Origin: Escherichia phage SME50
Direction: 5' to 3' (one strand)
Sequence record: MT887289.1
DNA: 64,000 nucleotides
The notes under the pieces were generated by a model that saw only the letters and a list, made by a program, of their open reading frames with translations, did not search any database and was not told where the DNA came from. Made by a program: the position numbers and the translations under genes. Positions 26,962-38,973 of this stretch are shown in pieces (position 1 is the stretch's first letter; the number at the start of each line of letters is the position of its first letter).

Positions 26962-28158
26962 ATGAACAAAGTACAGATTATTAAAAAGAACGGCTCACTT
27001 GAAGAACCTGATATCAAAAAAGTTTTAGCAGCAGTAACTAAGTCAGCTAACAGAGTTGGGTATAAAGAACTCCCACCAGATGTTACCCAAGCTCTTGAGT
27101 CAGCATTTATGAGGATTCTGGTAAAGTCCACTAAGCAGAATAATTTGCTCATCTCGGTAAACGATATTCACAGTATTGTTGAAGGTGCTTTGGCAGAAGT
27201 CAATCACGAGATTTATGAGTCTTACTCAACATACAGAAATTACCGTAAAGAGGTTGCTCAAAATTGGGATGAGCTTTACCAAAAGACTAAAGACACACTC
27301 TTCTTAGGTGACCGTGAAAACGCTAACTTTGACAGTAGTTTAATTTCTACAAAAGGCTCAATTATTCGTGGTTACCTGACTAAAGAAATCTTTAAACAGT
27401 ACCATTTAACACCAGAGGAACTTGAAGCCATTGAAAAAGGGTTTATCTACATCCATGACTTAAGAGACCTAATTTTTGGTGGGATTAACTGTTGCCTGTT
27501 CGACATTGGTAAAGTACTGAAAGGTGGCTTTGAAATGTCTGGCATCGAATACTGTGAACCAAAGTCTGTACTGTCAGCCTTACAAGTTATCGGTGATGTA
27601 GTTCTTTCAGCAACTGCACAGCAATTTGGTGGATTTACTTTAGCAGAGATTGATAAGGTGCTTGTACCGTATGCTAAGAAGTCTCTACGCTATCATGCTG
27701 AGAAAGCAGCATCTTACGGTATTCCTAAAGAACATTACCATAATTATGTCATGGAGCAGCTACAGATTGAATTAACTCAAGGTTTCCAGTCACTAGAGAT
27801 GAAGCTAAATACTGTACCTTGCAGCCGTGGTGATTTCGCATTCACAACTTTAACATTTGGTTTACTTGACTCAGACATGTCTAATGAAGACAACCGACTA
27901 CAATACATGATTGCAAACACCATTCTTGATGTTCGCATGAATGGACAAGGTAAGAGCAAGAAGCCTGTTGTATTCCCTAAACTGGTTTATATTCATGACC
28001 AGAAGAGACACGATGAGAATATCTGTCAAGGTCAACTGTACAGTAAAGCTATTGAGTGTTGCTCTAAAGCAATGTATCCAGATTTCTTAAGCGTATCTGG
28101 TCATGGTGCTGTAGCAGAGGCTTTTGAGCGTTCTGGCAAGGTCATTTCACCGATGGGT
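26962..28158 (+). CDS. nrdD: anaerobic ribonucleotide reductase, exon 1
   Basis: N-terminal ATP-cone; reading frame ends ...KVISPMG then stop; last exon nt is T. Confidence 0.8.
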
Positions 28159-28900
28159 TAACAAGCTCTATAGCTCATCTAAAACGTGCCTAAACAGGGA
28201 AACTCTACAGGTGTAGACAATCCTGTGCTAAATGATGTACGATGTAAGAAACTATATAAAATAGGAGTATTACATGCCAAATTATCATGTTACTGAGGAC
28301 GGAAGAGTCTTTAGGAAAAATGGTGTAGAACTTACGCAGTGGAAATCCAACACTGGTTATATGAAAGTAAGGTTTTATGGAAGGAAGAATCGTGACATGT
28401 ATGTCCATAGGTTAGTTGCTGAAAAGTATGTACCTAACCCTAACAATCTTCCAATTGTAAAACACAAAGATGATAACAAACTGAACAACCATGCTTCTAA
28501 CTTAGAATGGGGAACTCATTCTGAGAATGTTAAAGAAGGCTATGAGAATGGTTGCTACAAGTTTTGTAAGCGTTCATATGCTGTGAAGGCTACACATAAA
28601 GTGACAAAAGAAGTTATTGTTGCTAAGTCAATACGAGAGTTATCTAATGTACTTGGGTATAATCGCAAGACTATCTCTTCAATATTGAAGGGTGTAAAAG
28701 AGTATAATAACTTTGAACATGATTTTGAGTACATTTAAATGCCGAACGACTAACCGTGATGAATGTAGCGGTGTAGGGTCAAGCGACTCGAAATGGTACG
28801 CTACTTAGAAATAAGTAGAAGATATAGTCTGGACTTACTGGTGACAGTAAGCAGCTTGAATAAAGCGGGGTAAGCGTAGCGAACTTACCTGAACAACAAG
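28159..28900 (+). mobile_element. group I intron in nrdD carrying an HNH homing endonuclease
   Basis: exon 1 ends in U, intron ends in G; joining 28158 to 28901 restores in-frame ...SPMG-CRAFLSPYLNEDGEEFYVGR...; in-frame stop at 28877 upstream of exon 2. Confidence 0.75.
28274..28738 (+). CDS. HNH homing endonuclease (intron-encoded)
   Basis: 154 aa; HRLVAEKYVPNPNNLPIVKHKDDNKLNNHASNLEWGTHSEN resembles HNH motif. Confidence 0.7.
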   Translation: MPNYHVTEDGRVFRKNGVELTQWKSNTGYMKVRFYGRKNRDMYVHRLVAEKYVPNPNNLPIVKHKDDNKLNNHASNLEWGTHSENVKEGYENGCYKFCKRSYAVKATHKVTKEVIVAKSIRELSNVLGYNRKTISSILKGVKEYNNFEHDFEYI

Positions 28901-29848
28901 TGTAGAGCGTTTTTATCACCATATCTTAATGAGGATGGGGAAGAGTTCTATGTTGGTCGTGCTAACATTGGTGCTGTATCTTTGAACTTGCCTATGATTT
29001 ACCAGTATTCTAAAGAGAATGGTTTAGATTTCTGGAAAGAGCTTGATAAGTACCTAGAGATGATTCGCAGCTTCCACAAGAAACGCTACGAAATGATTGC
29101 TAATATGCCAGCAAGTTCTAACCCTCTTGCATTCACACAAGGTGGTCTGTACAAAGGGACTAAGAAACCTACTGATAAGGTTGGTTGGGATATTGTGAAG
29201 TCTTTCACAGCTTCTTTTGGGGTTACTGCTCTTGATGAGTTGTCGGTTCTTGCTGAGGGTAAACGACTCCATGAAGTTGGAAGCTATAGTTTTGCATACG
29301 ATGTTCTGGCATACATTAACATGAAAACTGAGGAGTTTAAAAATGAAGATGGCTTCTTATATGCCGTCTATGGTACTCCAGCAGAATCACTTTGCGGGAC
29401 TCAGCTAAAACAGTTCAGAGATATGTTTGGCGTTATCAAAGGTGTTTCTGATAAGGAATACTTTACAAACAGTTTCCATATGAATGTTGCAGCGGATATC
29501 TCACCATTTGAGAAGCAGGACTTAGAAGAACCATTCTTCCATATCTGTAGAGGCGGCAGAATCCAGTATGTGAGGGTAGCTAACCCAGAAAACTTACCAG
29601 CACTTAAAAGTTGTATTACAAGAGGCATGTTGAAGGGTTTTTATCAGGGACTTAACTTTGACTTAGCAATCTGTGAACATTGTGGTAACAGACCAAAGGC
29701 TGATGTTGAAGAATGTGAGGTTTGCCATTCACATGACATCTCTGTGATTAACAGGGTGTGTGGTTATCTTGGATGGACTAAGATTAAAGGTGAATCACGA
29801 ATGAACGATGCAAAAATTGCTGAGATTCGTGACAGGGTTTCTATGTAA
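28901..29848 (+). CDS. nrdD: anaerobic ribonucleotide reductase, exon 2
   Basis: C-terminal glycyl-radical motif RVCGYLG and CxxC zinc site (CEHCGN...CEVCHSH). Confidence 0.8.
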   Translation, partial: CRAFLSPYLNEDGEEFYVGRANIGAVSLNLPMIYQYSKENGLDFWKELDKYLEMIRSFHKKRYEMIANMPASSNPLAFTQGGLYKGTKKPTDKVGWDIVKSFTASFGVTALDELSVLAEGKRLHEVGSYSFAYDVLAYINMKTEEFKNEDGFLYAVYGTPAESLCGTQLKQFRDMFGVIKGVSDKEYFTNSFHMNVAADISPFEKQDLEEPFFHICRGGRIQYVRVANPENLPALKSCITRGMLKGFYQGLNFDLAICEHCGNRPKADVEECEVCHSHDISVINRVCGYLGWTKIKGESRMNDAKIAEIRDRVSM

Positions 29849-30630: not shown

Positions 30631-31116
30631 ATGAATTACATGGAGATTCGACCATTCGACACAGCTAATGGTGAAGGGGTTCGTGTAAGCCTCTTCGTAG
30701 CTGGCTGCAAACATCACTGTGAAGGCTGCTTTAACAGGGAGTCTTGGAAGTTTAATGCTGGTAAAGAGTTTACTTATGCAAACCTCTACGGCATCATTAA
30801 ATTAATGGATGATGAGGCCATCAGTGGGTTGTCAATACTTGGTGGAGAACCTCTTGATGACAGAAACATTCAAGAAGTCACCAACATATGTAAACGTATT
30901 AAAACTGTTTACCCAGAAAAGTCTATCTGGCTCTGGACAGGTTTTCAGTTACACGAAAAAATTCATCTAGATGTGATGAAATATGTTGACGTGGTGATTG
31001 ATGGTAAGTATGATTCTTCTAAACCAACAGTTAAACCATATCGTGGTTCTGATAACCAAAACCTCTGGAGAAAAGAGTATGGATGGCAAGGCGATTGTCA
31101 ATGGCGAGCAGAGTAA
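30631..31116 (+). CDS. nrdG: anaerobic ribonucleotide reductase activating protein (radical SAM)
   Basis: 161 aa; CxxxCxxC as AGCKHHCEGCFN; downstream of nrdD. Confidence 0.8.
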   Translation: MNYMEIRPFDTANGEGVRVSLFVAGCKHHCEGCFNRESWKFNAGKEFTYANLYGIIKLMDDEAISGLSILGGEPLDDRNIQEVTNICKRIKTVYPEKSIWLWTGFQLHEKIHLDVMKYVDVVIDGKYDSSKPTVKPYRGSDNQNLWRKEYGWQGDCQWRAE

Positions 31117-32003: not shown

Positions 32004-32015
32004 ACAGATACTATA

Positions 32016-32045
32016 AGGGGACTGTAAAGGTTCCCTTTTTTATTT
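32016..32045 (+). terminator. intrinsic terminator
   Basis: ggggactgtaaaggttccc plus ttttttatttt. Confidence 0.55.
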
Positions 32046-32055
32046 TGGAGATAAT

Positions 32056-32571
32056 ATGTATCTGTCAAATCTGAAACGTTCTGCTGCAATGTCAGTTCTA
32101 AGACTCAGCTTCGAGGAACGTCAAGAGTTCATTGACTCCCACCAATACGACCCTTCTAACTCAAATCACATGATTCTCTGGAATCGTGATAGTACCCGTG
32201 AAAGAGCACTATTCCGATATTACCCACACTACACTGTAGATAACTTGTATGAATGTTTTGTTGTGAAGAACACCATTGCAGTTCTCAATAAACTTTGCAG
32301 ATACACAGGTAGTCAATCCTTCACATTAGGTCACCACAAGCCTGTTACAAAAGGTGGTGAACATCACTGCGCAAACTGGTTTATCCAAACTAAAGCTGAT
32401 AACCAGAAGCAAGGAGATAGCCTTCTAAGCACTCCTAAGATGACCTATGAAGAGCAAGAGAAATATATCAAAAATAATATGCCAGATGTGCTTGACAACA
32501 ACTATACAGATTTGGCAATATCTCTCCTGTTGAAGTTCGAGACAGTTTATAGGGCAACTTACAATGGCTAA
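32056..32571 (+). CDS. hypothetical protein, possible HNH-like nuclease motif
   Basis: 171 aa; GHHKPVTKGGEHHCANW...NQKQG loosely resembles His-Me finger. Confidence 0.3.
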   Translation: MYLSNLKRSAAMSVLRLSFEERQEFIDSHQYDPSNSNHMILWNRDSTRERALFRYYPHYTVDNLYECFVVKNTIAVLNKLCRYTGSQSFTLGHHKPVTKGGEHHCANWFIQTKADNQKQGDSLLSTPKMTYEEQEKYIKNNMPDVLDNNYTDLAISLLLKFETVYRATYNG

Positions 32572-32842
32572 AGAGAAGTGGGAGATTTTACCACTAGTCA
32601 GTGAGGGTGGTAATGGTTGTGAAATGTATATGATACGAGGTCATGTTCCAGAACCAATTGCACTTGAGATGGTAAACAATTTTACAGATGGCTCTTACAA
32701 AGATTTAGGAGAACCAACTGTCAAGCAACAATGGGTTAAACCTGTACCAGACAGCACAGGTAACTGTAGTGTACTTTATCACGTTGTAGACCCTGCAAAA
32801 TGCAAATCTGCAATGGCAGTAACAAACGTAACTTTTAATTGA
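32564..32842 (+). CDS. hypothetical protein
   Basis: 92 aa. Confidence 0.4.
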   Translation: MAKEKWEILPLVSEGGNGCEMYMIRGHVPEPIALEMVNNFTDGSYKDLGEPTVKQQWVKPVPDSTGNCSVLYHVVDPAKCKSAMAVTNVTFN

Positions 32843-33735
32843 GAGAGAAAACTATGAAAACATCTATCCGTGTTACAGTTCATTCACCAACTAAAGGGAC
32901 TCATGAAGAAGAGTTTAACATCATCCAATTCCCTTCTGGTGAGATTGGTGGACACTTTTCACCAGAGTTTGTTGACTTCACTGCTTATGCAGCATCATCT
33001 ATCAACAATGTGATTATGATTGTAAAAGGTTATGATAAAGATACATTGTTTGCTGTGGCACTTGCTAAAGAGGCGGTGGACAACTTAGTACCTCATAAGT
33101 TTGCTATGAAGACTGTCATCTTTTACTATTTGCCAAATGCACGTTACGACCGTCACATGTTTAAAGGTGATGCAGCAGCTTTGAAAGTGTTTGCACAACA
33201 GGTTAATGCAATGGGTTTCGATGCAGTCTGTGCAGTTGACTCTCACAGTTATGTACCAGATAACCTGTTTAACTGCTTCCAGAGTATCCCCCAAAAGGAG
33301 ATTGCAGTCCACTATGCGAATGACCCACTGGTTGATTACTTAGTAGCCCCAGATGCAGGTGCTGCTAAGAAGATTGCAGAGACCGCTAAAGAGGTGGATA
33401 AACCATACATCACAATGTCTAAAGTGCGTAACCTTAAGACTGGTGAGATTACCGGTATGCGAATCCTCGATGATGTTGATTTGACAGATAAAACTGTCAT
33501 GATTCTGGACGACATCTGTGATGGAGGTCGTACCTTCATAGAGGCAGCTAAACATCTCCGTGAAGCAGGTGCAAAACGTGTGGAACTCTATGTAACACAT
33601 GGTATCTTCTCTAAAGATGTTGAAAACCTTCTTGACAACGGTATTGACCACATCTACACTACAAACTCTTTAGGGGAAGCTAAAGACCGTGGATTAACAC
33701 ATTATAGTCAAGTTACTGTAGCAAATTTGGATTAG
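32839..33735 (+). CDS. ribose-phosphate pyrophosphokinase (Prs)-fold enzyme; candidate ADP-ribose pyrophosphate synthetase
   Basis: 298 aa; PRPP-binding-type motif VMILDDICDGGRT; N-terminal half diverged from housekeeping Prs; adjacent to Nampt-like gene. Confidence 0.65.
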   Translation: MREKTMKTSIRVTVHSPTKGTHEEEFNIIQFPSGEIGGHFSPEFVDFTAYAASSINNVIMIVKGYDKDTLFAVALAKEAVDNLVPHKFAMKTVIFYYLPNARYDRHMFKGDAAALKVFAQQVNAMGFDAVCAVDSHSYVPDNLFNCFQSIPQKEIAVHYANDPLVDYLVAPDAGAAKKIAETAKEVDKPYITMSKVRNLKTGEITGMRILDDVDLTDKTVMILDDICDGGRTFIEAAKHLREAGAKRVELYVTHGIFSKDVENLLDNGIDHIYTTNSLGEAKDRGLTHYSQVTVANLD

Positions 33736-33743
33736 GTATTAAA

Positions 33744-34235
33744 ATGGATAAGGGTTACTTCGAAAAATACCTAAGATACGAACCAGAGACAGGTTTACTA
33801 ATTTGGAAAGTAACCCTTTGCAATACCGCTATTGCTGGCAATGTTGCTGGCACAAGGTCTAAGAAGGGTTATATCCAAGTTCAGATAAATAAGAAGAGGT
33901 ACTATGCACATAATATTGCATGGATTATGTCTGGAGGTGAGATACCAAGTGGATATGAGATAGACCACATAGACCTTGATAAAACTAATAATAAGTTGGA
34001 GAACTTAAGACTTAGCACAAAGTCACAAAATCAGAGGAATAGAGGCATACACAAGAATAATAAAACTGGTGTGAAGGGTGTAAGTTTTTGTAAACAAACA
34101 GGTCTTTACAAAGCAAGAGTCATGCTTTACCATAAAGAATACTTTTGTGGAAGATTTAAAACGGTAGAAGAAGCAAAAGAAGCTGTAATTAAAAAGCGAA
34201 TAGAACTTCATGGTGAGTTTGCAAGACATAACTAA
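33744..34235 (+). CDS. HNH homing endonuclease with AP2-like DNA-binding domain
   Basis: 163 aa; EIDHIDLDKTNNKLENLRLSTKSQN (HNH) plus GVKGVSF...YKARV... (AP2-like); free-standing between Prs-like and Nampt-like genes. Confidence 0.7.
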   Translation: MDKGYFEKYLRYEPETGLLIWKVTLCNTAIAGNVAGTRSKKGYIQVQINKKRYYAHNIAWIMSGGEIPSGYEIDHIDLDKTNNKLENLRLSTKSQNQRNRGIHKNNKTGVKGVSFCKQTGLYKARVMLYHKEYFCGRFKTVEEAKEAVIKKRIELHGEFARHN

Positions 34236-34249
34236 GAGAGAGATAAAAT

Positions 34250-36031
34250 ATGAGTAATTCACTTTACGCAGTACCAGCAGGTCTTAATGCAGATGCTTAC
34301 AAGGCATCACATATATATCAGTATCCAGATGCTACACAGTATCTTATGTTGAACCTGACACCACGTAGTGACAAATGGTTTAACAGCCCCTTAGCAATTG
34401 ACGGTGTAGTGGCTTTTGGTATTCAACGTTTTGTTAAAGATTACCTGATAGACCACTGGAACGCCACCTTCTTCGAACGTGACAAAAAAGAAGCAATTGA
34501 TGAAATCTTAGAAGTCATGAACGGCGTTCTGGGTAAAGATGCTATTGGTCGAGAACATTGGGAAGCACTCCACGACTTAGGTTATCTACCAGTTGAAGTC
34601 TACGCTGTAGAAGAAGGTACAGTTGTCCCTATGCGTGTGCCAATGATTGTCTTCCAGAACACTGTTTCAGGTTTCCATTGGGTAGCGGGGTATCTGGAAG
34701 ATGCTTTCTCTGCTGAGATTTGGAAGGCTTGTACCATTGCAACTATTGCATTGCACTACAAACGTATCTGTAAGAAGTGGTCTGACCTTACTTGTGACAA
34801 CGACTTGCATTTGCCTTATCAGTGCCATGATTTTGCTATGCGTGGTATGTCCGGCTTTACTGATGACGCATTTAACGCTGTAGGCCACTTAACCAGCTTT
34901 AAAGGGACTGATAGCTTCCCTGCTGTATATACAGCTAAACGCATCTACGGTCAGTCCTACCCAATCTCTGATATTGGTAGCTCTGTACCAGCCACTGAAC
35001 ACTCTGTAATGTGTGCAAACATTGCTTGGGAAGGTGGTAATGAGTTGATTGAAGAAGAAAGACGCTTTAAAGGTGAGTTACAAACCTTCCGTCGATTCTT
35101 AACAGAGACTTACCCAACTGGTATTGCAAGTGTTGTTTCAGATACTTATAATTTCTGGAGAACTGTATCAGTCATATTGCCAGAACTCCGTAAAGAGATT
35201 ATGGAACGTGATGGAAAACTGGTAATTCGTCCTGACTCTGGAGACCCTGTACATATTGTCACAGGCTATAAAGCAATCCACTTAGAGTGTGCTAAAAAGG
35301 CTTATTACGAACACCTAAGCAAGCTGGAAGCCAGCGACACAATGTTGAATGCTGTTCTGAACATGAAGCTTGAAAACATCAACTATGGTATTGCTGGGTG
35401 GCTACTGTCAGAAGGCTACGAAATGGTTGTTGACAGAGAAGACTTTGAAGTTGCTGATACAGTGCTGTTGAAAAATGCTTACATGGTTGGTTCTGCAAAC
35501 GTTGTAACACGTCCTGTAGCAGAGATTGATGGTGCTATTAAGACCCTGTATAACATCTTTGGAGGGACTATCAACTCTAAAGGTTTTAAGGTACTGGATG
35601 AGCACATTGGCCTTATTTATGGTGACTCTATCACGTTGGAACGTGCAAACGAAATCCTGAAACGTTTGTATGAAATGGGTTTTGCAAGCTCTAACGTAGT
35701 GTTTGGTGTAGGTTCTTATACTTACCAGTACATGACTCGTGACACCTTTGCATTTGCTGTCAAAGCAACTCTTGCAAGTATTGGTGGTAAAGAGATTATG
35801 CTTGCAAAAGACCCTAAAACAGATAGCGGTGTTAAGAAGTCTGCTTTTGGTGGTGTAGCACCCATGTGGGATGGTGATAAGCTGAAAGCTGTAGATGGCT
35901 ATGGATTCCAGAGCTTTGCAGATGTGCTTGAACATCCAGCTTGTGCTTTACGTTTAGTCTTTAGTGACTCTGAGCAGTTCGGTTACACAACTCTTGGTGA
36001 TATTCGAAATAATATTGACAAGCAACTTTAA
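34250..36031 (+). CDS. nicotinamide phosphoribosyltransferase (Nampt)-family enzyme; candidate nicotinamide ADPR transferase
   Basis: 593 aa; Nampt-like core including SVVSDTYNFW and GDSIT motifs. Confidence 0.7.
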   Translation: MSNSLYAVPAGLNADAYKASHIYQYPDATQYLMLNLTPRSDKWFNSPLAIDGVVAFGIQRFVKDYLIDHWNATFFERDKKEAIDEILEVMNGVLGKDAIGREHWEALHDLGYLPVEVYAVEEGTVVPMRVPMIVFQNTVSGFHWVAGYLEDAFSAEIWKACTIATIALHYKRICKKWSDLTCDNDLHLPYQCHDFAMRGMSGFTDDAFNAVGHLTSFKGTDSFPAVYTAKRIYGQSYPISDIGSSVPATEHSVMCANIAWEGGNELIEEERRFKGELQTFRRFLTETYPTGIASVVSDTYNFWRTVSVILPELRKEIMERDGKLVIRPDSGDPVHIVTGYKAIHLECAKKAYYEHLSKLEASDTMLNAVLNMKLENINYGIAGWLLSEGYEMVVDREDFEVADTVLLKNAYMVGSANVVTRPVAEIDGAIKTLYNIFGGTINSKGFKVLDEHIGLIYGDSITLERANEILKRLYEMGFASSNVVFGVGSYTYQYMTRDTFAFAVKATLASIGGKEIMLAKDPKTDSGVKKSAFGGVAPMWDGDKLKAVDGYGFQSFADVLEHPACALRLVFSDSEQFGYTTLGDIRNNIDKQL

Positions 36032-36044
36032 AAGTATATGATAA

Positions 36045-36070
36045 GAGGCTCCTACGGGAGCCTTTTTAAT
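36045..36070 (+). terminator. intrinsic terminator
   Basis: aggctcctacgggagcct plus ttttaattt. Confidence 0.6.
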
Positions 36071-36084
36071 TTCTGGAGAAGATT

Positions 36085-36420
36085 ATGAAAATCAAAGAAA
36101 TGAATATCAACATTGTCTTAGAAGAACGTTGGGAGAACATCAAGAAGCCTGAAAATGGTCATAAGTTCCTCAACAAAATCTTAGTGGCAGCTAAAGAAGA
36201 ACTGACTGGCAAGGTTGCAGCAGCAATCACAATAAAGGTGTGTGTAAAAGGTCTTCCAGACAATCACCAATTTGCACTTGACGAGTTTAAAGAAAGCTTC
36301 TACAATCCAAACAAACAGATGCTTGAAAGTAACTTTGCAGTATCTACAAGTATCGTTCATGACAGAAGCTTTATCCTTTACAAGAATATGAGAGGTGAGT
36401 CATGCAAGCATATTGGATAG
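36085..36420 (+). CDS. hypothetical protein
   Basis: 111 aa. Confidence 0.45.
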   Translation: MKIKEMNINIVLEERWENIKKPENGHKFLNKILVAAKEELTGKVAAAITIKVCVKGLPDNHQFALDEFKESFYNPNKQMLESNFAVSTSIVHDRSFILYKNMRGESCKHIG

Positions 36421-36578
36421 AAATTTTACTGTCACTTGGTAGTGTAGCAGTGTTCGTTTACCTTCTTTGCAAGTACTATGCAGAGCACAAAAAATGTGAC
36501 TTCTGTGACGGAGAAGGTTATACAAGAGCAGGTTGCTGCCCTATGTGTGGCGGTTCTGGTAAAATGTTTAATAAGTAA
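36402..36578 (+). CDS. small membrane protein with C-terminal zinc ribbon (below ORF-track cutoff)
   Basis: 58 aa; MQAYWIEILLSLGSVAVFVYLLC TM then CDFCDGEG...CPMCGGSG. Confidence 0.3.
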   Translation: MQAYWIEILLSLGSVAVFVYLLCKYYAEHKKCDFCDGEGYTRAGCCPMCGGSGKMFNK

Positions 36579-36606: not shown

Positions 36607-38973
36607 ATGCGCATGGTAAATGACCACGCAGAAGTGATTAAGAGTTCAACTTCTTTAGAGACGTCTCAAGCACAGATTACAATGACACCTGAAATGTTCA
36701 GCCTTTTGAGTTCTGGTGTATATACCTTTAAAGAAAGGGCAGTTATTCGTGAACTGTCATGTAACGCAGTAGATGCTCAGAAAGAAGCTGGAAAAGAGAA
36801 CATCCCGTTCCATGTGCATTTACCTACTCGTTTTGAGCCTTACTTTGAAGTTCGTGATTTTGGAACTGGATTGACTCATGATAAAGTTATGAGTTTGTAT
36901 CTAAATTACGGGGCTTCTACGAAGAATGACTCTAATGACTACATTGGTGCAATGGGTATCGGCTCAAAATCCCCATTTGCAATTGCTCAGTCATTCACAG
37001 TATCTAGCTATGTTGATGGTGTTGTCAATAAGTACTCTGTTTACCTTGAGAATGGTATCCCTCAAGTAACTAAGCTGACCACTAACCCAACAAAAGAACC
37101 TAATGGTTTAGCTGTACGTGTAGCAGTTGCTGACCACCGTATTTCAAAGTTCTTTGAAGAAGCTGGTCATGTGTACTCATACTTTGCTGTAAAACCAGAA
37201 AGTAATATCGAGTATGATGATGTATTAGCAGATATGAATGTCATTGCCCGTGAAGAAGGTGTTTATGATGCCATGATTCACAAACAAAGCTGGCGTTCTA
37301 GTGGTAACAGGACAGAGTTTAATGTGGTGATGGGTAATATCGCCTATCCAGTGAACATGGAAGCACTACTTGGTGATGATTTCTTCAAAGTCTTGCCAGA
37401 GTTTTTCCGTAGAAGCGTAGACCTTGTAAACATCTACATGCCTATTGGTTCAGTTGCTATTGCAGCTTCTCGTGAAGCATTGCAGATGAACGACACGACA
37501 AAAAATGTTATCATCGAGGCTACTAAAAAGATAACTGAAGCAATTACAAAGGATGTTATCAAGAAAGTTAATAGTCAACCTACACTCATGGATGCTGCAC
37601 AGGCTTATGCTGAGTTACGCTTGAACTCACGAGAGATGTTTAATGCTGTGTGTCCAAAGCTAGAGTGGGGAGGCGTTAAGCTTGATTCTCTGGAAGAAGA
37701 ATTACTAAACATTCGTCGTGGAATTATCTACGCAGAAGACGGCTCAGTTATCTATGAACGTGATGGTAAAGGTAATATTAAGGTTGATAGGAACGGAAAC
37801 AATATCCCTAAAGTAGATTATCTTTATAATCCAGTTGCTTATGTTAAGTTCAACTCTTTAGAAAGTAAGATTCGTGCAACAGCACTTTCCTACACTCAAG
37901 AGGCAAGTATGTTCAATATCTTTGGTGCAATGCGCAAAAGCCAAATTGAACAGTTTTTGTTTGTTATCAATGACCGTCGCAATAAAAACGGTACTGAGAA
38001 AACTGTAGGACGCAACCAGATTCTGCGTGGTGCATGTCGAGACTATGCCAGTGAGTCAAGTCTGTTTCACAGATACAATGGCATTGTCTTTGTATTCTCT
38101 ACTGAGAAAGAGCTAGACGACTTAATCAATCTGCACAAACTTGATAAAAGCTTGTTAAAGATTGTGAAGATGTCTGACAAGGAACATCATTATCAGCGTA
38201 AAGAAGCTGTAAGAGGTGTTGTAAAACTCTGGAAAGCTGTTCCAGCAGAAGGTGTAGCTTCATACAAAGAGGTGTCAGAAGACTTAGATACGATTGAAGA
38301 ACCTCAGCTTTACATTAAGGCAGTCGGTGACACAGTTGATGGTGAATGTTTTTGCTCATCTCCAGAAGATGTAGCTAAGTCAGTTGCCAATGTCATTGAA
38401 AAGACAGTCTATGTTTTCCGAAAAGCAAATTGGAAAAAGATACCAGAAGACTGGATTGAAGTAGATGAGAAGCTCTTGAACGACAGCTTAACTGATATTC
38501 ACTGGATTAATCATAACAGGTATATGACACGTATCTATATGAATGGTGTCCTAGACCTTACAAGCAGTTGGATTATTGCCAGAAACTTTACGTTCAATAA
38601 CAGGAAGATTTCTCGCGGCTATTGCTATTCACGAGACACAAACAAAACTATCTTCTTAGAAGGTAATGAAGATGCTGTTGAGGCAATGTTCGGTAAAATC
38701 CAATACGTTGCTGCACCATTTGCATACACTTACACTATTAGTGTGTTGCAAGATTTGAAAAGGTGTCTTGATAATGATACAAAGCTTTACAAGAAAATTA
38801 AGAAAGCTGGTGACCGTATGGTCATTAAGGTGACAAACTATCTTTTAAAAAGAAAACAAGAAAACTTCTTGCTTTCTCATTTAGATTGGAATAAAGTGTC
38901 ACCCATCGAAGTGAGTAAGTTCTTAGGCTTTGATGTGAAGTGTGTTCCAGAAGGGACTACAATTTACGATTAA
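36607..38973 (+). CDS. rIIA: rIIA-like protein with N-terminal GHKL ATPase fold
   Basis: 788 aa; GHKL N-box ELSCNAVDA, G1 VRDFGTGL, G2 IGAMGIGSKS; followed by rIIB-like gene. Confidence 0.55.
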   Translation: MRMVNDHAEVIKSSTSLETSQAQITMTPEMFSLLSSGVYTFKERAVIRELSCNAVDAQKEAGKENIPFHVHLPTRFEPYFEVRDFGTGLTHDKVMSLYLNYGASTKNDSNDYIGAMGIGSKSPFAIAQSFTVSSYVDGVVNKYSVYLENGIPQVTKLTTNPTKEPNGLAVRVAVADHRISKFFEEAGHVYSYFAVKPESNIEYDDVLADMNVIAREEGVYDAMIHKQSWRSSGNRTEFNVVMGNIAYPVNMEALLGDDFFKVLPEFFRRSVDLVNIYMPIGSVAIAASREALQMNDTTKNVIIEATKKITEAITKDVIKKVNSQPTLMDAAQAYAELRLNSREMFNAVCPKLEWGGVKLDSLEEELLNIRRGIIYAEDGSVIYERDGKGNIKVDRNGNNIPKVDYLYNPVAYVKFNSLESKIRATALSYTQEASMFNIFGAMRKSQIEQFLFVINDRRNKNGTEKTVGRNQILRGACRDYASESSLFHRYNGIVFVFSTEKELDDLINLHKLDKSLLKIVKMSDKEHHYQRKEAVRGVVKLWKAVPAEGVASYKEVSEDLDTIEEPQLYIKAVGDTVDGECFCSSPEDVAKSVANVIEKTVYVFRKANWKKIPEDWIEVDEKLLNDSLTDIHWINHNRYMTRIYMNGVLDLTSSWIIARNFTFNNRKISRGYCYSRDTNKTIFLEGNEDAVEAMFGKIQYVAAPFAYTYTISVLQDLKRCLDNDTKLYKKIKKAGDRMVIKVTNYLLKRKQENFLLSHLDWNKVSPIEVSKFLGFDVKCVPEGTTIYD

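What the first reader, a model, noticed from the sequence alone, without database searches (positions are those of the whole stretch)
32839..36031. Prs-like plus Nampt-like gene pair: candidate phage NAD+ reconstitution (NARP1-type) counter-defence module, split by a homing endonuclease
Seen in sequence: a 298-aa protein with the PRPP-synthetase fold (VMILDDICDGGRT) but a diverged N-terminal half, and a 593-aa nicotinamide phosphoribosyltransferase-family protein (SVVSDTYNFW), lie in one operon separated only by a free-standing HNH-AP2 endonuclease gene. Established knowledge: phages counter NAD+-depleting immunity (Thoeris, DSR, SIR2-type systems) with NAD+ reconstitution pathways; NARP1 uses a Prs-homologous ADP-ribose pyrophosphate synthetase plus a Nampt-homologous nicotinamide ADPR transferase, while NARP2 uses Nampt plus Nmnat. 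Inference: I see no HxGH Nmnat signature in the window, so the pairing points to NARP1-type chemistry rather than classical salvage. The divergent Prs N-terminus and the roughly 100-aa extra length of the Nampt homolog would fit neofunctionalised enzymes.
Basis: partly seen in the sequence, partly recalled or inferred. Interest (0 to 1): 0.85.

Follow-up and report, generated by a model that had tools for sequence, protein, structure and literature searches.

The report
Known phage NAD+ rebuilding operon (NARP1)
This is the already-published two-enzyme phage pathway (NARP1: Adps plus Namat) that rebuilds NAD+ after bacterial immune systems destroy it, here in a Felix O1-like phage whose two genes are separated by a common selfish endonuclease gene, so it is a correct call but not a new finding.

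Summary
Three co-directional genes occupy 32839-36031: a Prs-like gene, an HNH-AP2 endonuclease gene and a 593-aa Nampt-like gene. The Prs-like protein is more likely 293 aa from the ATG at 32854 than 298 aa.

The window is a Felixounavirus. NARP1 was discovered and genetically validated in Felixounavirus Bas63 (genes 79-80). The window's Nampt-like protein is 97% identical to Bas63 Namat, with the same length. It carries the published Namat adenine-clamp signature (GSYTYQYMTRD; K42/W43) and the catalytic Arg (R327). The Prs-like protein is 80% identical to Bas63 Adps and keeps the catalytic Lys (K190).

The HNH-split layout is also not new. Felix O1 itself has it, the same HNH gene sits in 61 phage records, and the founding paper's tables already list Felix O1's Adps and Namat.

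The ~100 extra residues are a lineage-specific folded insertion that the biochemically characterised SpβL1 Namat (491 aa) lacks. The PRPP-type loop does not separate Adps from Prs.

Minor by-products: a homing-site-like tract in namat that tracks HNH presence, and an ancient two-allele Adps N-domain.

Novelty: already known. Interest is low.

The parts
32015..32037 (+). Terminator-like GC hairpin followed by a T-run. It is the likely upstream boundary of the transcription unit that holds two small ORFs, adps, the HNH gene and namat.
   Evidence: AAGGGGACTGTAAAGGTTCCCTT + TTTTATTTTG; sequence checked. This is a consensus match only. The number of terminator-like sites in the region (6) is not above the shuffles (5.6 +/- 2.2).
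32840..32853 (+). Ribosome-binding-like motif GAGAGAGAAAACT directly upstream of the adps ATG.
32854..33735 (+). adps: ADP-ribose pyrophosphate synthetase, a Prs-family enzyme of 293 aa. Key residues in 293-aa numbering: R97/D99/R100 (RYDR), H131, P166/D167/G169, catalytic K190 (nt 33421-33423) and the DDICDGGRT loop at 219-227 (nt 33508-33534).
33744..34235 (+). Free-standing HNH-AP2 homing endonuclease gene (163 aa) inserted in the adps-namat spacer. It is not part of the NAD+ chemistry.
   Evidence: HNH_3 2.7e-19 plus AP2; PHROG 99 1.4e-69. Present once each in 61 phage records, against 253 records with this namat. Absent from Bas63 and wV8, where a 45-nt spacer with a GC hairpin takes its place. 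dN/dS ~0.11.
34236..34249 (+). namat ribosome-binding-like motif GAGAGAGATAAAAT. It marks the right-hand junction of the HNH insertion and is shared by HNH+ and HNH- genomes.
34250..36031 (+). namat: nicotinamide ADP-ribose transferase, a Nampt-family enzyme of 593 aa. Key elements: catalytic R327 (nt 35228-35230); selectivity-clamp loop K42/W43 (nt 34373-34378); selectivity-clamp helix motif G488-SYTYQYM-TRD498 (nt 35711-35743).
   Evidence: 97% identical (575/593) to Bas63 gp80. Best PDB sequence and fold match is SpβL1 Namat 9W5X/9W5W (E 1e-128; Foldseek E 1e-53, TM 0.95 on the target). The motif matches the published GSXΦXΦXΦTRD. AF2 pLDDT 92.2.
34280..34351 (+). Polymorphic tract in the 5' end of namat (codons ~11-34) whose sequence co-segregates with presence or absence of the HNH gene. 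It is a candidate homing-endonuclease recognition, immunity or co-conversion tract.
35021..35074 (+). Small lineage-specific insertion in Namat (residues 258-275, IAWEGGNELIEEERRFKG) that the ~496-aa Namats lack.
   Evidence: Alignments; coordinates.
35267..35530 (+). Large lineage-specific insertion in Namat (residues 340-427), predicted to be a compact alpha/beta subdomain. It accounts for most of the extra ~100 aa.
   Evidence: Absent from SpβL1 Namat, HdNadV and Xcc or human Nampt. Conserved in the 590-610-aa homologs of Ounavirinae-like phages down to 46% identity. pLDDT 92-96 with defined helices and strands. dN/dS 0.035-0.08, as constrained as the rest of the gene. No Pfam family.
36043..36066 (+). 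Terminator-like hairpin with T-run 11 nt after the namat stop codon. It is the likely end of the unit.
   Evidence: AAGAGGCTCCTACGGGAGCCTTTT + TAATTTCTGG.

Best explanation
The locus is a Felixounavirus copy of NAD+ reconstitution pathway 1 (NARP1).

Mechanism. When an NAD+-depleting defence (SIR2-HerA, DSR1/2, type I Thoeris, SEFIR and similar) cleaves NAD+ into ADP-ribose and nicotinamide, Adps (32854-33735) uses ATP to pyrophosphorylate ADPR to ADPR-PP. Namat (34250-36031) then displaces the pyrophosphate with nicotinamide and regenerates NAD+ directly, so the host NMN-to-NAD+ enzymes are not needed.

The endonuclease. The gene between them (33744-34235) is a free-standing HNH-AP2 homing endonuclease, a selfish insertion into the intergenic spacer. 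It leaves both open reading frames and the namat ribosome-binding motif intact and has no role in the chemistry.

Shown versus inferred. The gene content, the orthology and the signature residues are shown here. The biochemistry and the anti-defence phenotype are shown in the literature for Bas63 (in vivo), FADO (deletion phenotype against DSR2) and SpβL1 (in vitro, plus knock-in against Thoeris). Their transfer to this phage is inferred from 97% and 80% identity. The homing behaviour of the HNH gene is inferred.
For: 1. Phage identity. The window is a Felixounavirus: 258 phage records match 32500-36500, and the best are 96-97% identical. The window is collinear with Bas63 from ~20.8 kb to beyond 60 kb.
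2. Founding experiments. NARP1 was discovered in Bas63 genes 79-80. Deleting them gave ~20-fold fewer plaques on SIR2-HerA cells and deeper NAD+ depletion. ADPR-PP appeared only with wild-type phage plus the defence. The effect persisted in a ΔpncC ΔnadR host.
3. Orthology. Window Namat is 575/593 identical to Bas63 gp80. Window Adps is 233/293 identical to gp79 in the same gene order: NrdG, small ORFs, adps, namat, small ORFs, rIIA.
4. Namat-defining features are present: the SCH motif GSYTYQYMTRD with aromatics at positions 3 and 7, SCL K42-W43 identical to Bas63, and R327 equivalent to R306. Genuine Nampts read differently at the SCH: GAQTYQRNTRD in HdNadV and GGALLQKVDRD in Xcc.
5. Structure. 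The best PDB match by sequence and by fold is the SpβL1 Namat crystal structure, ahead of every Nampt.
6. Adps residues. K190 corresponds to the essential SpβL1 K162, and the Prs/Adps catalytic residues are invariant.
7. Prior cataloguing. The founding paper's supplementary tables already list Felix O1 genes 140 (Adps) and 142 (Namat, 'Adps-associated'), which have one gene between them. They also list wV8 Adps, which carries this window's N-terminal allele.
8. No Nmnat signature anywhere in the window.
9. Selection. Both enzymes and the HNH gene are under purifying selection.
Against: No experiment exists for this particular phage.

The in vitro enzymology was done on SpβL1 proteins, which are only ~35-38% identical to these, because Bas63 Adps did not purify well.

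The Bas63 deletion removes both genes together, so the two enzymes were not tested separately in this lineage.

The window's Adps N-terminal domain (aa 1-130) is only ~71% identical to Bas63's.

By pairwise BLAST the window Adps scores no better against FADO Adps (64.7 bits) than against E. coli Prs (65.1 bits). Its assignment therefore rests on orthology to Bas63 and wV8 and on the Namat partnership, not on a diagnostic Adps motif.

Namat retains PRPP-dependent NMN synthesis in vitro, so some classical activity cannot be excluded.

Whether the HNH insertion alters the expression ratio of the two genes is unknown.
Confidence: 0.93

Rival explanations
1. Classical salvage boost. The Prs homolog makes PRPP, the Nampt homolog makes NMN from nicotinamide and PRPP, and host NadR/PncC finish NAD+ synthesis. 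This is how databases annotate these genes.
For: Every deposited genome annotates the pair as ribose-phosphate pyrophosphokinase and nicotinamide phosphoribosyltransferase. Pfam and NCBIfam place them in those families. SpβL1 Namat can make NMN from PRPP in vitro. All Prs catalytic residues are retained.
Against: In Bas63, the 97%/80% ortholog pair works in a ΔpncC ΔnadR host and produces ADPR-PP in vivo. SpβL1 Adps gave no product in the PRPP-synthetase assay (Fig. 2D legend: ribose-5-phosphate plus ATP), and SpβL1 Namat makes only NAD+ when both substrates are offered. The window Namat has the adenine-clamp residues that Nampts lack.
Confidence: 0.04
2. NARP2-type pathway. Nampt works with a phage Nmnat encoded elsewhere in the genome, and the Prs homolog supplies PRPP.
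For: The window covers only 64 kb of a genome of about 87 kb, so a gene outside it cannot be excluded from the window alone.
Against: No HxGH motif occurs in any of the 240 frames of 60 aa or more. No Nmnat-like product is annotated in Bas63 positions 1-60,000. The protein carries the Namat, not the Nampt, clamp signature. The published tables classify the Felix O1 Namat as 'Adps-associated'.
Confidence: 0.01
3. The operon is functionally compromised in this phage. The 0.5-kb HNH insertion uncouples adps from namat, through polarity, altered stoichiometry or loss of the intergenic hairpin, so NARP1 is weakened or inactive.
For: HNH-less relatives have a conserved 45-nt spacer with a GC hairpin (GGGGCTTGAAAGCCCC in Bas63, GGGGCTTAAAAGCCCC in wV8) that this insertion replaces. 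The experimentally tested phage, Bas63, is the HNH-less form.
Against: Both ORFs are intact and strongly constrained: namat dN/dS is 0.03-0.07, and adps pN is well below pS. The namat ribosome-binding motif is preserved at the right junction. No terminator-like site lies between the genes. The same arrangement persists in 61 sequenced phages, including Felix O1.
Confidence: 0.03

Closest known systems
NARP1 of Escherichia phage Bas63 / JohannRWettstein (MZ501086, genes 79-80; Osterman et al., bioRxiv 10.1101/2024.02.11.579819; published in Nature in 2024 to my recollection)
   Same: Same genus and the same syntenic slot between nrdG and rIIA. Namat is 97% identical and also 593 aa, including both insertions and identical clamp residues. 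Adps is 293 aa and 80% identical, with its C-terminal half (aa 131-293) 87% identical.
   Different: Bas63 has no HNH gene between the two genes; it has a 45-nt spacer with a hairpin. Its Adps N-terminal domain belongs to the other allele class, ~71% identical over aa 1-130 with saturated synonymous sites. The first ~34 codons of namat differ in a way that tracks HNH presence.
Felix O1 (AF320576) ORF301-ORF305-ORF308
   Same: The same three-gene layout: adps, a 163-aa HNH gene, then namat, with near-identical spacing (517 nt versus 514 nt between adps and namat). HNH is 93% identical and Namat 97.6% identical. It is already listed as Adps plus 'Adps-associated' Namat in the founding paper's tables.
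   Different: Felix O1 carries the Bas63-type Adps N-terminal allele.
NARP1 of Bacillus phage SPbetaL1 (OQ921341; Namat crystal structures 9W5X/9W5W, PMC12774641)
   Same: Adjacent adps-namat gene pair. Catalytic K162/K190 and R306/R327 are conserved. The SCH aromatic pair F392/Y396 corresponds to Y490/Y494. The fold superposes at TM 0.95 normalised on the target.
   Different: Identity is only ~35-38%. SpβL1 Namat is 491 aa and lacks both insertions. Its SCL uses R40 for adenine stacking, whereas this lineage uses K42 followed by W43. Its Adps is 272 aa and has an SFGGT loop instead of DGGRT.
Housekeeping Prs plus Nampt/NadV salvage (E. coli Prs; HdNadV 9KE8; Xcc and human NAMPT)
   Same: The same two folds and the same catalytic cores.
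   Different: Identity is 22-29% for Prs and 24-34% for Nampt. Nampts lack the SCH aromatic residues. Bacterial prs is only rarely adjacent to a Namat homolog.
NARP2 (Nampt plus Nmnat, e.g. Vibrio phage KVP40) and NARP1-AP / RyDEP-extended NARP1
   Same: The same biological purpose: restoring NAD+ against depletion-based immunity.
   Different: There is no Nmnat signature. Pfam scans found no Macro-domain Adpp or RyR-domain RyDEP in the ORFs scanned up to ~2.6 kb upstream and ~3 kb downstream or between the genes (definitions). The inserted gene here is a nuclease, not a pathway accessory.

Membership tests
NARP1 - Adps | Member of the phosphoribosylpyrophosphate-synthetase family (PF14572/PF00156) with the two-domain Prs fold | tested here: met
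   Pfam PF00156 1.6e-11 and PF14572 4.1e-10; TIGR01251 125.6 bits, above its cut-off of 113. The AF2 model (pLDDT 91.7) aligns over 278-284 columns to E. coli and human PRPP synthetases at TM ~0.75.
NARP1 - Adps | Belongs to the phage-specific Adps clade rather than to bacterial Prs | tested here: met
   80% identity to Bas63 gp79 and 95.6% to wV8 Adps. Both are listed in the founding paper's Adps table. No tree was built here. Pairwise scores to Bacillus-phage Adps and to E. coli Prs are similar, so the test rests on orthology to listed members.
NARP1 - Adps | A Namat homolog in the immediate vicinity (true of 97% of the Adps clade) | tested here: met
   namat starts 514 nt downstream on the same strand, with only the HNH gene between.
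NARP1 - Adps | Catalytic lysine equivalent to SpβL1 K162 (K162A abolishes NAD+ reconstitution) | tested here: met
   K190 aligns with K162. It is conserved in all eight phage and bacterial Adps-type sequences of alignment A2 and is an invariant column in the 31-sequence alignment A4.
NARP1 - Adps | Pyrophosphorylates ADPR to ADPR-PP with ATP and does not act as a PRPP synthetase | not testable with these tools
   Shown in vitro for SpβL1 Adps, and ADPR-PP was detected in Bas63-infected cells. No sequence motif diagnostic for ADPR versus R5P was found: the 5-phosphate loop is SFGGT, SYGGT, DAGGT or DGGRT among Adps-type sequences, against DTGGT in E. coli Prs.
NARP1 - Namat | Nampt-like fold and catalytic core, including the Arg equivalent to SpβL1 R306 / human R311 | tested here: met
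   R327 lies in VIRPDSGDP. PF04095 and PF18127 both match. Foldseek to 9W5X gives E 1e-53 and TM 0.95 on the target.
NARP1 - Namat | [quoted passage not shown] | tested here: met
   Window residues 488-498 read GSYTYQYMTRD, with Y490 and Y494 at positions 3 and 7. HdNadV reads GAQTYQRNTRD and Xcc Nampt reads GGALLQKVDRD. Φ3 is Met rather than the commoner Asn or Val, exactly as in Bas63.
NARP1 - Namat | Selectivity-clamp loop that supplies an adenine-stacking residue. The third residue is Arg, Lys or Tyr; if it is Lys or Tyr, the fourth residue does the stacking. | tested here: met
   The loop reads S40-D41-K42-W43 and is identical to Bas63 Namat, which the paper cites as the Lys-type example. 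Stacking itself was not modelled here.
NARP1 - Namat | Prefers ADPR-PP over PRPP and forms NAD+ directly | not testable with these tools
   Shown for SpβL1 Namat. Inferred here from the clamp residues and 97% identity to Bas63 Namat.
NARP1 - pathway | Counter-defence phenotype against NAD+-depleting systems | not testable with these tools
   Shown by deletion in Bas63 (SIR2-HerA) and FADO (DSR2), and by knock-in of SpβL1 NARP1 (type I Thoeris).
NARP2 | A phage-encoded Nmnat (HxGH nucleotidyltransferase) partnering the Nampt | tested here: not met
   No H-x-G-H occurs in any six-frame open frame of 60 aa or more in the 64-kb window. None is annotated in Bas63 positions 1-60 kb. About 23 kb of the genome lies outside the window.
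NARP1-AP / RyDEP-extended NARP1 | A Macro-domain ADPR-1''-P phosphatase (Adpp) or an RyR-domain glycosidase (RyDEP) in the operon | tested here: not met
   Pfam scans of eleven ORFs between 30200 and 38973, including the inserted gene, found no Macro (PF01661, PF14519, PF20016) or RyR (PF02026) match (definitions). Single-sequence hmmscan is less sensitive than the HHpred search used in the paper.
Free-standing phage homing endonuclease (HNH class) | Intact HNH nuclease domain plus a DNA-binding module, encoded between genes rather than in an intron or intein | tested here: met
   HNH_3 matches full length at 2.7e-19. AP2 matches at 4.9e-4, which is below Pfam's cut-off. PHROG 99 matches at 1.4e-69. 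The gene occupies the adps-namat spacer. dN/dS is ~0.11.
Free-standing phage homing endonuclease (HNH class) | Presence/absence polymorphism at one locus among close relatives, with flanking sequence variation linked to presence | tested here: met
   61 records carry it, one copy each, against 253 records with namat. Namat codons 11-34 co-segregate with HNH presence in all five genomes compared. The sample is small.
Free-standing phage homing endonuclease (HNH class) | Site-specific cleavage of the HNH-less allele and unidirectional inheritance in mixed infection | not testable with these tools
   No data are available. This needs in vitro cleavage assays or co-infection crosses.

The most novel reading that the evidence does not exclude
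The Ounavirinae-type NARP1 may carry an extra, uncharacterised functional layer that the studied SpβL1 system lacks.

Two features suggest this. First, Namat has a conserved, confidently folded ~88-aa alpha/beta subdomain (residues 340-427) plus an 18-aa insertion. Second, the Adps N-terminal domain exists as two anciently diverged allele classes, saturated at synonymous sites, that recombine within an otherwise ~94%-identical genus.

These could reflect regulation of the enzymes, Adps-Namat docking or substrate channelling, or escape from a host factor that senses or inhibits NARP1 enzymes. For comparison, SpβL1 Namat does not stably bind Adps according to the section heading in PMC12774641.

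Separately, the HNH gene may home specifically into the NARP1 locus, using namat codons ~11-34 as its target.
Probability: 0.15. Interest if true: 0.4.

Novelty: already known. Interest (0 to 1): 0.1.

Why it matters
NARP1 is an important recent discovery: viruses rebuild a metabolite that host immunity destroys. This window adds nothing to it, because the same operon, in the same phage genus, is the published founding example. The HNH-split form in Felix O1 is already in the paper's own census.

The practical value is for annotation. Hundreds of Felixounavirus genomes, many proposed for phage therapy and food biocontrol, still label these genes ribose-phosphate pyrophosphokinase and nicotinamide phosphoribosyltransferase. 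Relabelling them Adps and Namat predicts that these phages resist SIR2-, DSR- and Thoeris-type NAD+ depletion. It also predicts that they are vulnerable to aRES-type defence, because no Adpp phosphatase is present.

Tried and rejected
1. Rejected. The 5-phosphate loop is SFGGT (SpβL1), SYGGT (FADO), DAGGT (a Cronobacter homolog) or DGGRT (this lineage), against DTGGT in E. coli Prs. It varies as much within Adps-type sequences as between Adps and Prs, and the other catalytic residues are shared.

2. Pairwise similarity as a clade test. The window Adps scores 97.8 bits against SpβL1 Adps, 64.7 against FADO Adps and 65.1 against E. coli Prs. This is not discriminating, so I relied on orthology to Bas63 and wV8 and on the published tables.

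3. The ~100 extra residues as a Namat hallmark. Rejected, because SpβL1 Namat is 491 aa.

4. Identifying the inserted subdomain. Pfam on residues 336-427 gave only an insignificant DUF4528 hit (E 0.028). The whole-model Foldseek search returns only Nampt and Namat folds.

5. Accessory NARP1 genes (Macro Adpp, RyDEP). None were found in the flanks.

6. Promoter scan. 34 promoter-like sites against 24.6 +/- 5.0 in shuffles, and terminators at chance level. I used this only to note the two hairpin-plus-T-run sites that bracket the unit, not as evidence of operon structure.

7. A group I intron around the second HNH gene, inside split nrdD. No Rfam hit at gathering score.

Full report
**1. What is there**

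The + strand of 32839-36031 carries three tightly packed ORFs:
- A Prs-family ORF at 32839-33735.
- A 163-aa HNH_3 plus AP2 endonuclease ORF at 33744-34235.
- A 593-aa Nampt-family ORF at 34250-36031.

The family matches are unambiguous. The first ORF is better started at the ATG at 32854. The TTG at 32839 overlaps the upstream stop codon. The ATG is preceded by GAGAGAGAAAACT, the same motif that precedes namat. The resulting 293-aa product matches the length of the annotated orthologs.

The unit lies between nrdG (30631-31116) and rIIA (36607-38973). It is bracketed by hairpin-plus-T-run sites at 32015-32037 and 36043-36066. These are consensus matches only.

**2. Where the window comes from**

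The 4-kb region matches 258 deposited phage genomes. Nearly all are Felixounavirus from Escherichia, Salmonella, Shigella and Citrobacter hosts, and the best are 96-97% identical. The window is collinear with Escherichia phage JohannRWettstein (Bas63, MZ501086) from about 20.8 kb to beyond 60 kb, apart from a few small indels.

**3. This is the published system**

NARP1 was discovered in exactly this operon. Osterman et al. (bioRxiv 10.1101/2024.02.11.579819; to my recollection published in Nature in 2024) noticed a Prs-like/Nampt-like gene pair in four BASEL phages and deleted genes 79-80 of Bas63. They reported the following:
- Loss of resistance to SIR2-HerA and deeper NAD+ depletion.
- Independence from host PncC and NadR.
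- Appearance of ADPR-PP only in defence-expressing cells infected by wild-type phage.

The enzymology was done with the SpβL1 homologs, because Bas63 Adps did not purify well. It showed ADPR plus ATP giving ADPR-PP, then ADPR-PP plus nicotinamide giving NAD+. The K162A mutation in Adps and the R306G mutation in Namat abolished the pathway. The pathway was found in 859 phage genomes, 4.3% of those analysed.

I located Bas63 gp79/gp80 and compared them directly. Window Namat is 575/593 (97%) identical with no gaps. Window Adps is 233/293 (80%) identical with no gaps.

The founding paper's supplementary tables already list Felix O1 AF320576_00140 (Adps) and AF320576_00142 (Namat, 'Adps-associated'), which have one gene between them. 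They also list wV8 Adps, which has this window's N-terminal allele.

**4. Signature residues**

The 2026 crystal-structure paper on SpβL1 Namat (PMC12774641; PDB 9W5X/9W5W) defines what separates Namat from Nampt:
[quoted passage not shown] The window protein has GSYTYQYMTRD at residues 488-498, S40-D41-K42-W43 in the loop, and R327 in the catalytic VIRPDSGDP. The true Nampts HdNadV and Xcc Nampt read GAQTYQRNTRD and GGALLQKVDRD at the helix.

The AlphaFold2 model (pLDDT 92.2, pTM 0.91) matches SpβL1 Namat best (Foldseek E 1e-53, TM 0.95 on the target). HdNadV comes next, followed by mammalian NAMPT.

For Adps, K190 aligns with the essential SpβL1 K162, and the residues shared by Prs and Adps are invariant: RxDR, the catalytic His, PDxG, DD and G..T. 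The model (pLDDT 91.7) is a complete two-domain PRPP-synthetase fold at TM ~0.75 and ~20% identity to E. coli and human enzymes. No Adps structure exists in the PDB copy searched.

**5.

- **Extra length.** The ~100 extra residues of the Nampt homolog are not a Namat feature. The characterised SpβL1 Namat is 491 aa. The extra length comes from two insertions, residues 258-275 and 340-427. They are conserved only in the 590-610-aa homologs of Ounavirinae-like ~85-92-kb phages, down to 46% identity. The larger one is predicted to be a compact alpha/beta subdomain with pLDDT 92-96. It is as constrained as the rest of the gene (dN/dS 0.035-0.08) and has no Pfam match.
- **The DDICDGGRT loop.** It does not discriminate Adps from Prs, because validated Adps enzymes differ from each other in that loop.
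- **Absence of an Nmnat signature.** This part of the reading was confirmed: no HxGH occurs in any of 240 open frames.

**6. The endonuclease**

The right junction preserves the namat GAGAGAGA motif. The gene is under purifying selection (dN/dS ~0.11).

In the five genomes compared, namat codons ~11-34 co-segregate perfectly with HNH presence. DNA identity to HNH-less genomes is 20-22 of 30 in namat nt 31-90, against 25-30 of 30 in the other 30-nt bins of the first 300 nt of namat. That is the pattern expected for a homing site, an immunity tract or a co-conversion tract of a free-standing homing endonuclease. This is an inference and was not tested. The endonuclease is therefore a selfish passenger, not a NARP1 component.

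Pfam scans found none of the known NARP1 accessories, Macro-domain Adpp or RyR-domain RyDEP, in the surrounding ORFs.

**7. Adps dimorphism**

The Adps N-terminal domain (codons 1-130) exists in two allele classes:
- Class B: Felix O1, Bas63.

The classes are ~70% identical in protein, with saturated synonymous differences (pS 0.76). Codons 131-293 show pS 0.29-0.40. The classes do not track HNH presence. Both are in the published Adps list.

This is the only respect in which the window differs materially from the experimentally tested Bas63 enzyme, and it is the main residual uncertainty.

**8. Verdict**

The module is the already-published NARP1, in the genus where it was discovered, in an arrangement present in the type phage Felix O1.

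Confidence that it works as NARP1 is 0.93. Novelty: already known. Interest: 0.1.

The most novel reading that remains open is that the lineage-specific Namat subdomain, the Adps N-domain dimorphism, or both encode an additional regulatory or evasive function. I give this a probability of about 0.15 and modest interest if true.

Noticed in passing
[not shown]
   Followed up: partly
window 34280-34351 (namat codons ~11-34): The sequence of this tract co-segregates with presence or absence of the upstream HNH gene in all five genomes compared. It is a candidate homing-endonuclease target, immunity or co-conversion tract.
   Followed up: partly
L005:4129-4173 (Bas63) and L008:2556-2600 (wV8); the equivalent of window 33736-34249: HNH-less relatives carry a conserved GC hairpin followed by ATTTT in the 45-nt adps-namat spacer (GGGGCTTGAAAGCCCC in Bas63, GGGGCTTAAAAGCCCC in wV8). 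The HNH insertion replaces it. It may be an attenuator or an RNA-stability element that sets the Adps:Namat ratio.
   Followed up: no
window 35267-35530 and 35021-35074: Namat of Ounavirinae-like phages has two conserved insertions, of 88 aa and 18 aa, that are absent from SpβL1 Namat and from all Nampts. The larger is a confidently predicted alpha/beta subdomain with no Pfam match. The same site holds unrelated insertions of other lengths in several other homologs (P0231, P0226, P0234, P0216).
   Followed up: partly
window 26962-29848: nrdD is split into two ORFs (26962-28161 and 28982-29848) by a second HNH endonuclease ORF (28274-28738, PHROG 59, 3e-43). Bas63 annotates the equivalent gene as a two-piece join. 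No Rfam intron family reached its gathering score.
   Followed up: partly
window 32056-32571: The 171-aa ORF two genes upstream of adps (PHROG 3500, function unknown) contains an HNH-like stretch (GHHKPVTKGGEHHCANW...ADNQKQG) and gives a weak hit to an HNH-endonuclease PHROG (1e-4). Together with the 92-aa ORF at 32564-32842, it lies between the same two terminator-like hairpins as adps and namat.
   Followed up: no
[not shown]
   Followed up: partly
window 32840-32853 and 34236-34249: Both NARP1 genes are preceded by the same purine-rich GAGAGAGA motif 6-7 nt before the ATG. The motif is conserved in all five genomes compared. The HNH gene lacks it, having only TAGGTATTAAA before its ATG, which suggests weaker translation initiation for the endonuclease.
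   Followed up: no
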